Made by a program: the position numbers and the translations under genes. A stretch of DNA of 64,000 nt from Saccostrea echinata (lineage: Eukaryota): contig NW_026889771.1 in assembly GCF_033153115.1 (NCBI RefSeq), positions 7,502,001-7,566,000 of the forward strand, given 5' to 3'. This document shows, piece by piece, positions 56,819-63,100 of this stretch. Below the pieces are notes generated by a model. The model saw only the letters and a list, made by a program, of their open reading frames with translations, did no database searches and was not told the DNA's origin. The first letter of the stretch is position 1. Every line of letters begins with the position of its first letter.

Positions 56819-59800
56819 TCATCTTCCTGCTTCTTGGGGCACATCCCCCTCACCACTGTCCAGCATGTCAAACGCTTTAAGCACCTTATGTTGTCTTGTA
56901 CTCCTGAGCTTTTTGAGGTCATTTGCATACTGTTGTTCTCTCAGCAGCTGTTTTCTCTGCTCCTCGAGGTCCCGTTGGTGTGCCTGATAGACGCGAGTCA
57001 TGTGTATCAGTTCTTGTAATTCCTTTCGTAATTGTCTGTTTTCCTGTTTTATTCTGTTGGTGTGATCTGACAGGCACTGACTAGCTTCCTGTTAATTACA
57101 TAAGTTTTTTTTACTAGAAAAATTACATGCAAGATCTTGAAATGTTCATATCCCTGTCAAATATCATATATTTTTTGAATTTTTCTCTAACAATGTACTT
57201 TCAGCTCTCTATTTACCTTGTTTGCTAATTTTTCCAGGGCTGTTATCCTGTTTTCTGAGTCTTGTTGATACTCCCTTTTTTCTGCAAGGAAGGTGGACTT
57301 GAGTTGCTGGATGGTTTCTGAATGTTTGGATCTCATGACCATCACTTCTTTTTCCAGCTCCTTTATTTTATCCAGCTGGTCAGTTTGTAGATCCTGATAA
57401 AGAGTAATTTATTTCAGTTTAGATGCCATAGCATATAATTTCATTTATAGTTTTCTAGGAAAATCACAGTTGTCTAAAAATATTTTCATAGTACATGCAA
57501 TTCTATTTTTGCTACTTTTGCCGAAACAAATCCATAAAAGTAACACTGTATTGAAGTTAATGTATATAATGAATAATCAAAAGAGAGAAAAAAATGCCCA
57601 TTTCAAAACTGAGCAAAAAACAGATTTTTGAGAATTTTCCATATTTTAACCTTAAGGTGTTGGTTTCCAGTTTTGACTTACCGGTAGTTTTGTAAAGCAG
57701 ATTTTGTTCTCAAATGCAAATATAACTTGAAGTAAACTTAATACTACCTATGTTGGTTTAATTGTCTATGATTTGATTTAGCGATTTCTGATATTAAAAT
57801 ACCTTCAAAGGAATTTCCAAGATAATTAATAAAGAATAATGCATGGCTTTTACATTGTACATGCACAACTGAAAATGAAAAATGCCTGGTCTTCTCTAAG
57901 CGTAATTAGATAAGCACAGTTATGTGCACTACATGTACTTATCCTCCTCCAAAACTCAACAAAAGGGTTTAAAACCTTTAAACACAGTATGACACAAAGT
58001 CTATCAAAATAATGATAATTATTCAAGTGAAAAAATTAATGCGTTTAACTGAATATGTCCCTAGATCAATCAAATATTAACCAAGTATGATGCAGACTTC
58101 TATGTTTACTGTTGTTCCATTCATATGACCCAGGCCAAATGTTAAACACTGTAAGTAAAGGGGGATTTCCAACCTTATGGATATATATATATACATGTAT
58201 GTTTTGCAAGTAATAAAATACCTTGTACTCCTGAAGTTCTGATAACTCCTCTATTGTTTTCTTCAGAATATTTTGCTTTGCAAATAACATATTTTCAAGT
58301 GCTGCAAATAAATGCATGTATTATTCAATATATGTCAAATACTATAATCATTTTTCCAGTGCAGACATTTAAATATAAAAGTTTGTCCGTACATTTTGTA
58401 CTTCAACAGCTTAAATTACTACATGTATATTAAATTTGTAGGTATGAAATAAATTCTGCTCAATTTTAATTTGATAATTTTGATTTTCATAATTTATGAA
58501 CATACTCATAATGAAACAAGTATCCCATATACATGTAATAGCAAATTACATTTTGAAACATGTATGTTTCTGAAAATTTCTAATAAATTGGTTACGAATC
58601 TACAGATGCTCCACTCTACATCCTGAACAACCCCAAAACTACACTATAGCTCCTGAACTGACCTTGTTTCTTTTGATTGAACTCCTCTTCCATGTTCTGT
58701 TTCTCTAGCTCAATGTTTCGGATTTCTTCTTTGTTGTGATCACTCAGAGTAATAATGGTTGTCTTACGTTTTGTTGTCTTCTTCTCCATGTAACTCATGT
58801 ATTCATGCTGTGAATAGTTATAAAAACAAAATGTTATAAACCCATGTGATAGATTTTTATTAAAACTTGTTGTGGATAGTTATAGATACAAAATATTAGT
58901 AACCTATTATAAATGATAGACCTACAAATATAGTCAAATAACTGATGATAATATACAGTGGGTTAATATTGATAACATGATACATGTTTAATGGTTTGGG
59001 CTGTGGATATCGGCCTGGGTAGCTCAGTCGGTAGAGCACTTGACTAGTGATGCAGGGGTCCCAGGTTTGATTCCTGGTCCAGCCATACATTTTCTCCTTT
59101 CCTGTTACACATGTATTGGAAATGGCAACATGGCAACAACTATGATTATTGAAACTCTATATATTATATTATAATATTCTCTATAATTTTTTATAAATCT
59201 TTGCATGTAATTATGTTATAATATTCTTCTTCCTTTTTTTCTGTTATCTGTAATTTGACTTCTTATTTTGACTGTATGCCAACATGGTGATGTCAATAAA
59301 TTGAATTAATTAATATACATACACTTTCAACTCTGACCCTGCTCCCTTCTTGTTGCAGCCATTCATTTTCCTTACGTCTTGCATTGTGTTAAGGGATTAC
59401 TTCCATATTTCAAAATTTCTATTGTTTAACAATTAAAAAAAACAAAACAAAAAAACAAAACAAAAAAAAAAACATGGTGCATATTAAATCAATATGATAA
59501 AAATAGAGTTTCAAATTATATCGACCAGTGTTTCAATTTTTTTTATTAATTAGACTTAATTCAAGGATACAAGTCTTCAACTCTTTTCTTTGCATTTTGT
59601 AATTCAGCAGTCACCTTTTCCAATCTACAAAAGAGAATTTGTACATATGTAGGACCGTTAAATCAATCTTGCTTTTCTTTACTTGTTCATGTTGTTTAAT
59701 ATACAGCTAGAGAAAATTCGGGAGGAAAAGCATAGCTACTCACTCTTGTTGCAAGAGTAATTCCTTTTCAGAGGGTTCTGGAGTACCAACTTTTGCTGTA

Positions 59801-59883
59801 TCAGTTGCTCCATCTTCTTTATCTCCTTTTCCTCCTTTCTTTCCTTTTTTACCCTTTCCCTTTCCCTTCTTCTTTGGAGGCAT
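56819..59883 (-). CDS. CCDC166: Coiled-coil domain-containing protein 166 homolog (DUF4515), 7 exons, ~306 aa
   Basis: Exons 59883-59744, 59624-59571, 59377-59323, 58807-58663, 58301-58222, 57393-57217, 57088-56819; in frame (921 nt). MPPKKK..PSEKELLLQQE..LRKENEWLQQE..YMSYMEKK..LQEYKDLQTDQLDKIKELEKE..FLAEK..HTNRIKQENRQLRKEL parallels CCDC166 (CCDC121 is a paralog). Intron 2 is U12-type. Confidence 0.85.
58987..59109 (+). mobile_element. tRNA-like-core element, copy 2 (putative solo LTR), 4-bp TSD CATG
   Basis: CATG|TTTAATGGTTTGG...TAGCTCAGTCGGTAGAGCA...GGTTTGATTCC...TTTCTCCTTTCCTGTTACA|CATG. Confidence 0.8.
59378..59570 (-). other. U12-type (minor spliceosome) GT-AG intron
   Basis: Donor GTATCCTTGA. 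Branch sequence TCCCTTAAC (59396-59388) is 8 nt before the acceptor AG, with no polypyrimidine tract. Splicing gives an in-frame join. Confidence 0.9.
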
Positions 59884-60109: not shown

Positions 60110-63100
60110 ATGGCTGCGCCCATGAAGGAGGCAGATTCGAATAGTGGAAAAGTAGAAGACGATGCTCTGAACTTGTCATCGCCTTCTTTCGACCCTTTAA
60201 GAGCCCTTTACAGTAGCCGAGTCTTATTGCCATGTCCAAACATAGTGCCATTAAATAACATTGCCGAATATGTGTCATTTAGTGAAGGGAAATCCAGAAG
60301 ACATAGACAAGCTCAGGGACTGTCCGACACTGTGCAAAGGAACACTTCGCGTGAAAAACTTATCTCTCGTAACGATGATAAAAGAAGCCATCACTTACAA
60401 AAGAGCAGTTCCTCACATAGTGCCACAGAAATGTTACATACTACTCACAAAGTTACAGATGAACCCAAGGGGAAGAATGATAGGGATGACAGTGAAAGAA
60501 AACTTCCAAAGCAAAGAAGAAATGTTCTCACTAGAATGGAAGGTTTGTATTGTAATGATCAAGAATTGTCATACACAGAACATTTTCAACTCTCTTGTTT
60601 AAATGGTTAATAATTTATCCCATCATTGTATAAATATGTATAAATATGTAACAGGAAAGGAGAAAATGTATGGCTTGACCGGGAATCAAACCCGGGACCC
60701 CTGCATCACTAATCAGGTGCTCTACTGACTTAGCTACCCAGACGTATATCCACAGACCAAACCATCACAAATATCTGCATGTAGAAACATTATTTCATTT
60801 GGGTGATCCATGTACTTTCACAACATAAAATAATATGTTGATGGTGCGACCGTTCGGGCGAGTGCAGTGGTAAATATTGGATAGTCTAATAACATTACCT
60901 AATTCACTTTTAACTAGATTTTTAACCTGTTAACTAGACCCAACTTTTCAAACTGTACAAGACATTTGGAGGGTCTAAACTGTGATGTCACAGTTTAGAC
61001 CCTCCGAATCACAATTTTGATTGAAGTTTCGTAGCTGAATTTGTTAATTTTTTGTTTTTAATATGACCACAAAAATATTAATGGATCTTTATACATTTCT
61101 TATAACTTAAATGACTTCCCATAACTCTGATCTGCAGCTTGCTGGAATGAAAAAAAAAAATTGGGATGGATGACCAGAGAGCTACAATGCCACCATTGTA
61201 AAAAGTGTATATTTATAAGCACATAAAAGTGCACTGTTTTTTAATTTATTTCTCCATAAATTTATGATGCCATCTCAAAATATTACTAACCGTGTGTTCC
61301 TAAATAATCTTTTACTACTTCCACAATAAAACATTCCCCAAAGCCATTTTTGATAGCCCTCTTGGGCGTGAAATTGAGACCATTAAGAATTTCACCTAAT
61401 TATTTATATGCCATTTTGGGTTGCAAGACAATTAGGTCCAATGCGCTTCGTTCATGACTTGTACATGCAGTTTTGTTGTGGAAGTAGTAAAAGAATATGT
61501 TAGGAACACATGGTTAGTAATATTTGAAATATCTGGAGAAATAAATTGAGAAATGGCACACTTTGAAATGGCTGGCTCTCTGGTTGTCCATTGCAATTTT
61601 TCAGACCAGCAAGCTACAGGTCTGCAGCTAACCATAACCATGATAACCTGGAAGTTTTACTTCTCAGAATATTCTCTGACAATTCTAACAAACTGGGGAA
61701 ACCTCAGAAGTTTTCATAGATGCGCAGATGAAAGAATTATGTCATACTCAAAGGCATGTGACATAATGTTTAGTGCAAGCTGCATTTGCTCATTTTGAGA
61801 CAGAAAGATTACACTAAAAATTTTTGTATAAATTCATTGATAAAAAATCATAGTCATGCTATAGACAACTTGTTGCTATGTGTGTAAACATTGGAATGAG
61901 GATTTGGAGTTTAGAATTTTTTCATGTGGACTCATAACAAAACAGGTTTACTCAAATTTCCTCTCTTCATACATTTAATATGTAGACCTTGCTGTTAACA
62001 AAGGCTAAAACTCTCTGCCATTAAACTTCATTCCAAAAAAACCCCAAAAATTGAAAATGAGAAGATTTTTTTGCTTAGTTGAAATACTTTTTGAAGAATA
62101 CTCCTTCATTAATAGCATATCAAAGATATTTGGTACATTGTAGGCCAGTCTGAAACCAATGCTTATTTGTTTATCATTTTCAAATGCAAAAACTTTTATA
62201 CAAAAAGAAAATTGTACAGTGATTCTGTCTAAAACCCTAAATAATCATGTAATGATTTACATCTACTTTGAAACAGTTATTAAAAAAAAAAAATCTTTTT
62301 CCATCCAACAAATTATATCAATATTTTTTTTATTAAAGGTTATAGAAGTGGGCCACTTAGTTTTCTGCAAAGGTGTGTTCAAGAAAGGCTATTAGTTCAG
62401 GTGTGGATCCGAAGTGCAGTTGATCTCAGAGGAGTGTGTAAAGGATACATTGTAGCTTTTGACAAACATTTCAATCTGGTAAGTTTTGTACTTTGTTGCC
62501 CCTTCTTTCAGCAGCATTAATATATACTTGTATTTCACAACAAGCAGGTCAGGATTAAGTGTCAAGTGTTTGCTTTTTAAAAAAAAAAAATTGAGTGTTA
62601 AAAGTTTCTTGTAAGTGCATTTGTTTTACGAACTGTAGATTCTTTATTTTATGTGAGCAGTTAATATCACAGAATGACTCCAAGCCATCAATTCTTGAGA
62701 ATATGAATTCAAGTTTTTGACAGTTGGTCTATAACTTTTACTTGTATTTCAGTAATTTAAAAATAGGAGCAAAGAATTTTAAATTTCGAGTGCTGCTTCT
62801 CATGAAATTACTCGATTATTTAACACAATTTTTATTAAGCATATATCTAAGAATTTACAGTATGTTACATGTATGTTTATTCTGCAATCCCTGCAGACAC
62901 AGCATAGTTCTGATTAGTGATACTTAACTATTTTATTTAAGGCAATGATTGATGTTGATGAGCTCTATAGGTGCCCATTGTGGAAAGAGGCACAACTACG
63001 CAAGGAGAACAAGGTAAAGTCACAAGACTTGAATGAACTGTGTCATTTTACAGAAAATATTGTGAAAATCTAGATTACTTATGTTTTGTGTCAAATACAA

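What the first reader, a model, noticed from the sequence alone, without database searches (positions are those of the whole stretch)
58987..60769. 'SINE-looking' tRNA elements are probably solo LTRs with an embedded Pol III promoter
Seen: three ~125-130-bp copies (10719-10848, 58987-59109, 60647-60769) carry a tRNA-like core with an A box, an anticodon-like loop (AGT in two copies) and a B box. The core is internal, with ~25-30 nt of leader. The ends are fixed TG(T)...TTACA with no poly-A or microsatellite tail, and copies 2 and 3 have clean 4-bp TSDs (CATG, TATT). Knowledge: TG...CA ends plus short fixed TSDs indicate integrase-mediated LTR insertion, not SINE retroposition. Cassandra TRIMs carry 5S RNA in their LTRs, and I recall tRNA-bearing TRIMs being described as 'Helenus'. 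Inference: these are solo LTRs of at least two subfamilies of such a TRIM.
Basis: partly seen in the sequence, partly recalled or inferred. Interest (0 to 1): 0.7.

Follow-up and report, generated by a model that had tools for sequence, protein, structure and literature searches.

The report
Helenus solo LTRs, Gypsy helper traced
These three short tRNA-like repeats match the end-repeats of two miniature jumping elements of a kind described in 2024 (Helenus) and are likely leftovers of recombination, so they are ordinary, but hybrid and mis-copied versions elsewhere in the same genome reveal the larger jumping gene and the host tRNA they likely depend on.

Summary
The three copies are solo LTRs of two Helenus TRIM families, about 96-97% identical (by eye) to published Helenus-2_SaGl (copies 2, 3) and Helenus-1_SaGl (copy 1). 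G000 holds two-LTR copies (355-362 bp) with a tRNA-His PBS and a PPT; 35 of 64 elements have exact 4-bp TSDs and none has 5 bp. Corrections: copy 2 begins TT, copy 1 has only a 3-bp match, and copies 2 and 3 have a mutated B box. The kind is known, and this scan has found it in other genomes.

Additions beyond the paper:
(1) A hybrid of a Gypsy 5' LTR and a Helenus body, bounded by one 4-bp TSD, points to the helper: an 8.8-kb tRNA-His-primed Ty3/Gypsy family with the same PPT at 15 of 16 bases.
(2) CCA-bearing copies of mature tRNA-His sit behind Helenus LTRs; 4 of 9 events stop just before G37.
(3) A T4/T5 run follows the tRNA-like core, so Pol III would have to read through it.
(4) PPT+U3 is predicted to pair with the tRNA-like 3' half.
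(5) One total-RNA run hints at abundant RNA covering the whole element.
Pol III transcription is untested.

The parts
10719..10848 (-). Copy 1: solo LTR of family B (Helenus-1_SaGl type), 130 bp, TGT...TTACA; 21 differences from young copy L052
   Evidence: no PBS or PPT in the flanks
10746..10818 (-). tRNA-like core of copy 1 (box A, box B GGTTCAAATCC); the T5 run behind it is broken to T3
   Evidence: Rfam 39.2 bits, ARAGORN tRNA-???
10716..10718 (+). Left flank ATG, matching 10849-10851 (3-bp match only; likely a 4-bp TSD that lost one base)
58983..58986 (+). Left TSD CATG of copy 2
58987..59109 (+). Copy 2: solo LTR of family A (Helenus-2_SaGl type), 123 bp, starts TTT (G>T at 58988), ends TTACA; 6 differences from young copy L006
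59013..59085 (+). tRNA-like core of copy 2; B box mutated at 59068 (GGTTCG to GGTTTG)
   Evidence: Rfam 43.4 bits, ARAGORN Thr-AGT
59090..59093 (+). T4 run just behind the core, a putative Pol III terminator (T4 or longer in 70 of 71 family-A LTRs)
   Evidence: the role is inferred
59110..59113 (+). Right TSD CATG of copy 2
60643..60646 (+). TSD AATA (TATT on minus) of copy 3
60647..60769 (-). Copy 3: solo LTR of family A, 123 bp, TGT...TTACA; 11 differences from L006
60671..60743 (-). tRNA-like core of copy 3; B box mutated at 60688; T4 run at 60666-60663
   Evidence: Rfam 33.2 bits
60770..60773 (+). TSD AATA of copy 3

Best explanation
The three repeats match the LTRs of two Helenus TRIM families that exist as two-LTR elements elsewhere in this genome, and are likely solo LTRs left by LTR-LTR recombination of elements that a tRNA-His-primed Ty3/Gypsy retrotransposon likely mobilised in trans. 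Steps: (1) INFERRED: Pol III starts near the tRNA-like core of the 5' LTR, sometimes reads through the T4/T5 run behind it, and stops at the same run in the 3' LTR, giving an RNA of about 315 nt with the tRNA-like segment as the R repeat. (2) PREDICTED: in that RNA, PPT+U3 pairs with the T-arm/acceptor 3' strand plus the U5 pyrimidine tract, so neither tRNA-like copy folds its acceptor stem. (3) SHOWN in DNA: the PBS is complementary to the host's own tRNA-His, and aberrant copies carry reverse-transcribed mature tRNA-His including CCA. (4) INFERRED from one TSD-bounded hybrid and shared signals: the RNA is packaged and copied with an 8.8-kb Gypsy family. (5) SHOWN: insertions carry 4-bp TSDs, and an empty allele lacks exactly the element plus 4 bp. 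(6) INFERRED: recombination between the two LTRs leaves one LTR between the TSDs. The window copies are decayed leftovers; copies 2 and 3 are independent insertions on opposite strands.
For: Structure: among 64 elements with both ends, 38 have two LTRs, 4 have three and 22 have one; internal parts are about 109 bp (A) and 96-103 bp (B), with a few deleted or expanded exceptions. TSD: 35 of 64 exact at 4 bp, 0 of 64 at 5 bp; chance of a 4-mer match is 0.006. Empty-site contigs skip 359 = 355+4 bases at L007 in 3 of 4 runs. PBS: tRNA-His(GTG) genes L063-L066; some family-B internals carry a perfect 18-nt PBS, and the rest keep a 13-14-nt bulged match. Primer fossils: of 18 pattern matches, 8 are tRNA-His genes without CCA and 10 (9 events) carry the CCA complement (one of them 2 of its 3 bases); 7 of the 10 directly follow a Helenus LTR; 4 of 9 events end at C38, just before G37, a known RT stop in human tRNA-His (PMC6140461, PMC6675128, passages). 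Helper: gag 446 aa plus pol of about 1310 aa in PR-RT-RH-IN order, LTRs about 1.2 kb and 95.7-99.8% identical in 5 copies, 18-nt His PBS, PPT matching at 15 of 16 bases, ends TGT(A/G)GTG...GGTTACA, exact 4-bp TSDs in 3 of 5 copies with both ends. Hybrid L192 is a Gypsy 5' LTR + Helenus-A internal + Helenus-A LTR inside CAAC/CAAC; L223 joins a Gypsy LTR end to a Helenus-B internal part; L183 is an A/B hybrid inside CTTG/CTTG. T-run: T4 or longer in 70 of 71 A LTRs and 50 of 52 B LTRs, elsewhere in the LTR in only 3 and 1. Pairing: -43.0 and -48.6 kcal/mol against shuffled -23.4+/-3.7 and -30.9+/-4.4 (0 of 1000 each); cognate pairs beat cross-family pairs (-39.5, -35.4). RNA: Helenus/neighbour-repeat depth ratio is 20 in run X6 against 0.07-0.10 in three other runs.
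Against: No direct evidence of Pol III transcription or of transcript ends; all runs laid are contigs, whose depth the tool calls a poor measure, and only one total-RNA run (X6) was laid with a high ratio. 16 of 64 elements lack even a 1-mismatch 4-bp TSD, and copy 1 has none exact. Only one Gypsy-Helenus hybrid has a testable TSD (L223 is 5'-truncated, with no matching LTR start in about 19 kb upstream). The L192 LTR is only 78-85% identical overall (86-92% at its ends) to the sampled Gypsy LTRs. Other His-primed LTR families exist (e.g. L131-L133, L101-L103, L113, L118) and could also help. No internal homology between Helenus and the Gypsy beyond spacer, PBS and PPT. T4 runs occur in 3 of 31 A and 5 of 18 B internals. 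5 of 9 primer fossils do not end exactly at C38, and 2 are not next to Helenus. The 22 'solo' counts include a few LTRs with decayed internal parts (L022, L075) and some duplicated loci.
Confidence: 0.88

Rival explanations
1. tRNA-derived SINE copies (SINE2) retroposed by a LINE, with TG...CA ends by coincidence.
For: tRNA-like A and B boxes; short dispersed copies; 24 of 88 sampled elements are truncated.
Against: Two- and three-LTR copies with PBS and PPT; 4-bp fixed TSDs, 0 of 64 at 5 or 7 bp and only 3 longer matches (2 in T- or AT-rich low-complexity flanks); no tails; the head is not at the 5' end.
Confidence: 0.02
2. Functional tRNA-Thr(AGT) genes or tRNA pseudogenes.
For: ARAGORN calls copy 2 tRNA-Thr; Rfam scores exceed the gathering score; the short family-B RNA folds as a cloverleaf-like MFE; the paper's Fig S1 lists related bivalve LTRs as possible tRNA-Thr.
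Against: Intact LTRs give 'tRNA-???'; the family-A short RNA MFE is not a cloverleaf; acceptor-stem mismatches; hundreds of copies have LTR ends and TSDs.
Confidence: 0.02
3. Same TRIM, but the replicating RNA is made by Pol II (read-through from host genes or a cryptic promoter), and the tRNA-like core mainly yields a short terminated Pol III RNA or acts structurally.
For: A conserved T4/T5 directly behind the core would end most Pol III transcripts before the PBS; copies 2 and 3 lie in introns of a head-to-head gene pair; Cassandra tandem arrays were detected in transcripts by RT-PCR (PMC7215508, passages).
Against: In X6 depth falls about 1000-fold or more at both element ends (17-127 in flanks against 1-6e5 inside), and internal-part depth is similar to LTR depth; boxes A and B are conserved; the ratio is low in the other three runs.
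Confidence: 0.15
4. Same TRIM, but the helper is a different His-primed LTR family, and L192 arose by post-insertion rearrangement.
For: At least four other LTR-end types precede a perfect His PBS; there is only one TSD-bounded Gypsy hybrid.
Against: The L131-L133 family ends its internal part differently (…GGGGACGAA) and does not share the PPT; the hybrid's matching TSD has about 0.4-0.6% chance; a second hybrid junction exists at the same point (L223); an older family-A subfamily shares the TAATT spacer with this Gypsy.
Confidence: 0.15

Closest known systems
Helenus-2_SaGl (Kojima 2024, PMC10886601; main text parts 1-4 and 6 of 6, supplement parts 5-6 of 11 and two supplement searches read)
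   Same: Family A (copies 2, 3): by-eye comparison gives 5 differences in the 123-bp LTR (young copy L006) and 3 substitutions + 1 indel in the 109-bp internal part (L007); His-type PBS, same PPT, 4-bp TSD.
   Different: About 4% sequence divergence. The paper names helpers only by PBS similarity (Gypsy-39_CGi for His); in the parts read it shows no Gypsy-Helenus hybrid, primer fossil, terminator analysis, LTR pairing or RNA data for Helenus.
Helenus-1_SaGl (same paper)
   Same: Family B (copy 1): 3 substitutions + 1 indel in the 130-bp LTR (young copy L052, by eye); internal part closely similar.
   Different: Here a 96-98-bp internal subtype carries a perfect 18-nt His PBS, likely restored from the primer.
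Cassandra TRIM (PMC7215508, passages; PMC10886601)
   Same: Non-autonomous two-LTR element with a Pol III gene fragment and a terminator in each LTR; tandem LTR arrays; predicted long hairpin RNA.
   Different: Cassandra carries 5S (type 1 promoter) and is found in plants; this element carries a tRNA-like (type 2) core, is in an animal, and makes 4-bp TSDs.
Ty3/Gypsy with His PBS, e.g. Gypsy-39_CGi (PBS seen in Fig S2)
   Same: The candidate helper has the same 18-nt His PBS preceded by T-rich bases.
   Different: Whether it is orthologous to Gypsy-39_CGi was not tested, as no sequence was on hand.
biv-TRIM (PMC6934838, passages)
   Same: Bivalve TRIM with short direct repeats.
   Different: No canonical PBS was identified there, and the tRNA similarity is in the inner domain, not in the LTR.

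Membership tests
Helenus (TRIMp3) | Two LTRs around a short non-coding internal part, under about 1000 bp | tested here: met
   355 bp (A) and 358-363 bp (B) typical; 38 two-LTR elements among 64 with both ends
Helenus (TRIMp3) | tRNA-like sequence inside the LTR with box A (TRGCY..YGG) and box B (GGTTC) | tested here: met
   Rfam tRNA hits; boxes intact in young copies; box B mutated in window copies 2 and 3
Helenus (TRIMp3) | PBS complementary to the 3' end of a host tRNA | tested here: met
   tRNA-His(GTG) genes in G000; 13-18 nt complementarity; CCA-bearing primer copies
Helenus (TRIMp3) | PPT just before the 3' LTR | tested here: met
   AAGGAGGGAGGAA in both families
Helenus (TRIMp3) | 4-bp TSD in animals; TG...CA ends | tested here: met
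   35 of 64 exact, 48 of 64 with at most 1 mismatch, 0 of 64 at 5 bp; TG..CA within 2 nt of the aligned ends in 63 of 64, which includes copy 2 whose own end is TT; empty allele skips 355+4
Helenus (TRIMp3) | Mobilised in trans by a Gypsy element (proposed for animal Helenus) | tested here: met
   Indirect: TSD-bounded Gypsy-Helenus hybrid L192 plus shared PBS, PPT, ends and TSD length; one hybrid only
Helenus (TRIMp3) | Transcription from the internal Pol III promoter | not testable with these tools
   Only contig depths were available: a hint of abundant RNA in one run, but no ends, strand or polymerase
SINE2 (tRNA SINE) | tRNA head at the 5' end, A-rich or repeat tail, variable-length TSD | tested here: not met
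   26-30 nt leader, fixed TTACA end, fixed 4-bp TSD
Functional tRNA gene | Canonical cloverleaf with a 7-nt anticodon loop and intact acceptor stem | tested here: not met
   ARAGORN '???' in 5 of 5 young LTRs of L006, L007, L052; acceptor pairing probability 0.002 or less in the modelled full-length RNA; the short family-B RNA can fold cloverleaf-like

The most novel reading that the evidence does not exclude
Oyster Helenus makes an abundant non-polyadenylated Pol III RNA through a deliberately leaky terminator, and hides its tRNA-like halves from tRNA-processing nucleases by pairing them with its own PPT+U3. It rides in the particles of one identifiable His-primed Gypsy family, and its failed copies write a heritable record of host tRNA modification sites (stops before A58 and G37) into the germ line. 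This would be the first helper-parasite pair for an animal Pol III TRIM supported by a hybrid insertion.
Probability: 0.35. Interest if true: 0.62.

Novelty: already known. Interest (0 to 1): 0.38.

Why it matters
For annotation: hundreds to a few thousand such LTRs will be mis-called as tRNA genes or SINEs in this genome (copy 2 is called tRNA-Thr). For mechanism: the describing paper leaves open whether Helenus is really transcribed by Pol III and how its dependence on a helper is maintained. This genome offers a named helper family supported by a hybrid insertion, direct fossils of the primer, young polymorphic copies, and a public RNA run with a strong signal, so those questions become directly testable. 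A library search for Helenus + TRIMp3 returned only the describing paper; searches showed no account of such hybrids or terminators for Helenus. That search covers open-access papers only, and parts 1-4 and 7-11 of the supplement were seen only as search hits.

Tried and rejected
(1) Copies 2 and 3 as the two LTRs of one element: rejected, since they lie on opposite strands, each has its own TSD, and host exons lie between them. (2) Insertion preference for promoters: a recalled start-site motif occurs 3 times in 132 kb of flanks (68 loci) against 8 in 200 kb of background, and CpG density is lower, so there is no enrichment. Three copies in 64 kb against 0 in 200 kb of arbitrary stretches stays unexplained and may be selection of the window. 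(3) The TAATT spacer as a sign of template switching to the helper: mostly an older family-A subfamily (81 matches; of 30 read, most are ordinary Helenus, 8 are the Gypsy itself and 1 is the hybrid). (4) Covariation in the pre-PPT hairpin (CG..CG in 15 of 31 A, TG..CA in 7 of 18 B): weak, because both changes are also plain CpG decay. (5) An LTR-PBS junction pattern had the wrong spacing and found only 4 places; not used. (6) A TSD for hybrid L223: its Gypsy LTR is 5'-truncated, and no start was found in about 19 kb upstream. (7) Internal homology between Helenus and the Gypsy beyond PBS and PPT: none. (8) Naming the right-hand host gene: Pfam found 0 families for two exons and the Atlas gave no usable hit. 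(10) Twister or hammerhead ribozyme in the LTR: no such Rfam hit in the window at E<=1; the internal parts were not scanned.

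
Full report
Observation. Rfam scores each core above the tRNA gathering score (39.2, 43.4 and 33.2 bits), and ARAGORN calls two of the three. Copies 2 and 3 are 91% identical to each other; copy 1 is 71-75% identical to them over the core and tail only. Copies 2 and 3 have exact 4-bp TSDs; copy 1 matches over 3 bp only. Copy 2 starts TT, and copies 2 and 3 carry a C>T change in the B box. None has a PBS or PPT beside it.

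Genome context. Searching G000 (923 Mb) with copies 3 and 1 gave 1648 and 1048 first-look candidates, of which 40 each were scored. Exact 19-mers occur 376 and 305 times, so these are lower bounds. From the loci, 88 distinct elements were parsed: 64 have both ends (38 two-LTR, 4 three-LTR, 22 one-LTR) and 24 are truncated. The sample is biased to similar copies and includes the three window copies and some duplicated loci. Exact flank matches were 35 at 4 bp, 0 at 5, 2 at 6, 0 at 7 and 1 at 8; 48 of 64 match at 4 bp with at most one mismatch. The script mis-set the left end of copy 2, so 35 is slightly low. LTR-LTR differences run from 0 to 31 in A (23 elements) and 0 to 26 in B (15 elements), so activity is long-lived and recent. 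At L007, contigs of 3 of 4 public runs join across exactly 359 bases, the element plus one TSD.

Identity. Kojima 2024 (PMC10886601; main text parts 1-4 and 6 of 6; supplement parts 5-6 of 11 and two searches) defines Helenus as TRIMs with tRNA-like LTRs, a PBS, a PPT and 4-bp TSDs in animals. By eye, family A differs from Helenus-2_SaGl at 5 of 123 LTR positions and 4 of 109 internal positions; family B differs from Helenus-1_SaGl at 4 of 130 LTR positions. The host is therefore likely an oyster; I went no further.

Primer. A pattern for the PBS complement found tRNA-His(GTG) genes that encode no CCA. Some family-B internals carry a perfect 18-nt PBS ending before A58; the usual A and B internals keep 13-14 pairs with one bulge. 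In retroviruses, plus-strand synthesis stops at m1A58 of the primer (PMC8599865, passages). A looser search gave 18 matches: 8 tRNA-His genes and 10 copies carrying the CCA complement (9 events; one has 2 of the 3 bases) that extend past A58. Seven of the 10 directly follow a Helenus LTR, one lies between an LTR-like tail and a Helenus internal part, and two have no Helenus neighbour. Four of the 9 events end at C38, immediately before G37; the others end at G37, in or near the T arm or variable loop (3, one of them ambiguous), or in the D loop. m1G37 is an RT stop in human tRNA-His (PMC6140461 and PMC6675128, passages); its presence in this host is assumed. Two events have their own 4-bp TSDs. 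These are fossils of run-through on the primer and directly show tRNA-His priming.

Helper. Of 30 loci read from 74 places with an 18-nt His PBS followed by a non-G base, 7 belong to one long-ORF family. It is about 8.8 kb, with gag 446 aa and pol about 1310 aa in protease-RT-RNase H-integrase order, i.e. Ty3/Gypsy. Its LTRs are about 1.2 kb, it has 4-bp TSDs (3 of 5 exact), its PPT matches the Helenus PPT at 15 of 16 bases, and its LTR ends are similar. L192 is a 1277-bp Gypsy 5' LTR joined at the PBS to a family-A internal part and LTR, the whole flanked by CAAC/CAAC. This is what inter-template plus-strand transfer inside one particle would give (inference); a chance match has probability about 0.004-0.006. 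Among 18 Gypsy LTR-PBS junctions, 2 continue into Helenus (L212 = L192, and L223 into family B) and 16 into the Gypsy. L223 is truncated, so its TSD cannot be tested. A/B hybrids also exist: L183 with a CTTG TSD, and L104 and L199. Against: the L192 LTR is a diverged sub-lineage (78-85% overall), other His-primed families exist, and there is no internal homology.

Transcription. A T4 or longer run follows the core in 70 of 71 A LTRs and 50 of 52 B LTRs, and is rare elsewhere in the LTR (3 and 1) and in internals (3 of 31, 5 of 18). By established knowledge (recalled), T4-T5 terminates metazoan Pol III, so a replicating RNA needs read-through in the 5' LTR. The paper does not discuss this for Helenus; Cassandra has terminators in its LTRs and multi-unit transcripts (PMC7215508, passages). 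Run X6 (random-primed RNA) shows summed contig depth of 1-6e5 across LTRs and internal part of L007 against 17-127 in the flanks. Against an adjacent high-copy repeat in L096, the Helenus/repeat ratio is 20 in X6 and 0.08, 0.07 and 0.10 in X11, X14 and X18. This is a hint only: contig depth, one run, a differently labelled organism, and possibly cDNA.

RNA structure. PPT+U3 pairs with the core's 3' half plus U5: 0 of 1000 shuffles reach the observed energy in either family; for U3 alone, 1 and 5 of 1000 do. Cognate pairings are stronger than cross-family ones. In model full-length RNAs the acceptor stems have probability 0.002 or less. By eye, the U3 pairing also appears in Helenus-2C_CGi, Helenus-1_ArIr and Helenus-2_PiIm with different letters. 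That it shields the RNA from RNase P/Z or aids strand transfer is a hypothesis.

Verdict. The window feature is an ordinary instance of a described family, and 40 earlier notes of this scan in at least 7 genomes mention such elements. The value lies in the helper hybrid, the primer fossils and the expression hint, which make the paper's open questions testable.

Noticed in passing
window 59740-59883 (-) and 60110-60542 (+): Head-to-head first exons about 230 bp apart; copies 2 and 3 sit in their first introns. The left gene has a DUF4515 exon (56822-57091, E 8e-7). The right gene looks like LSM11 from recalled motifs in exons at 62284-62517 and 63247-63780; Pfam and the Atlas did not confirm this.
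   Followed up: partly
window 24272-26416, 29809-30649, 44754-47209: Three related arrays of about 166-bp units with a shared end, hit by up to 6 of 20 background stretches; likely Helentron-carried satellite-like repeats (PMC7492417, search listing only).
   Followed up: no
L021 1246-1623: Chimeric 5' LTR: Helenus-3_SaGl-like U3 and core switching at the shared B box to family A, flanked by AAAA/AAAA. This suggests recombination between families with different PBS types.
   Followed up: partly
L209 about 1580-1710; L141 9550-9912: A family-B LTR inserted in reverse into the start of a Gypsy gag, and a full family-B element about 740 bp past a Gypsy 3' end.
   Followed up: no
L022 1500-2790: Rearranged cluster of family-A LTRs around a long inverted duplication.
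   Followed up: no
L131-L133: A second His-primed LTR family (LTR about 540 bp, with the PBS set about 14 nt behind the LTR), including short internally deleted copies.
   Followed up: partly
L217, L221, L222, L228, L209: A Gypsy subgroup with a 2-base insertion inside the His PBS.
   Followed up: no
L096 930-1482: High-copy neighbour repeat that looks like a Penelope-like element 3' part (recalled motif), used as the depth control.
   Followed up: partly
window 4164-4328, 9239-9348, 18759-18866, 20688-21526, 23993-24085: An 80-bp exact tandem duplication, three short palindromic elements and a tandem array of about 110-bp units.
   Followed up: no
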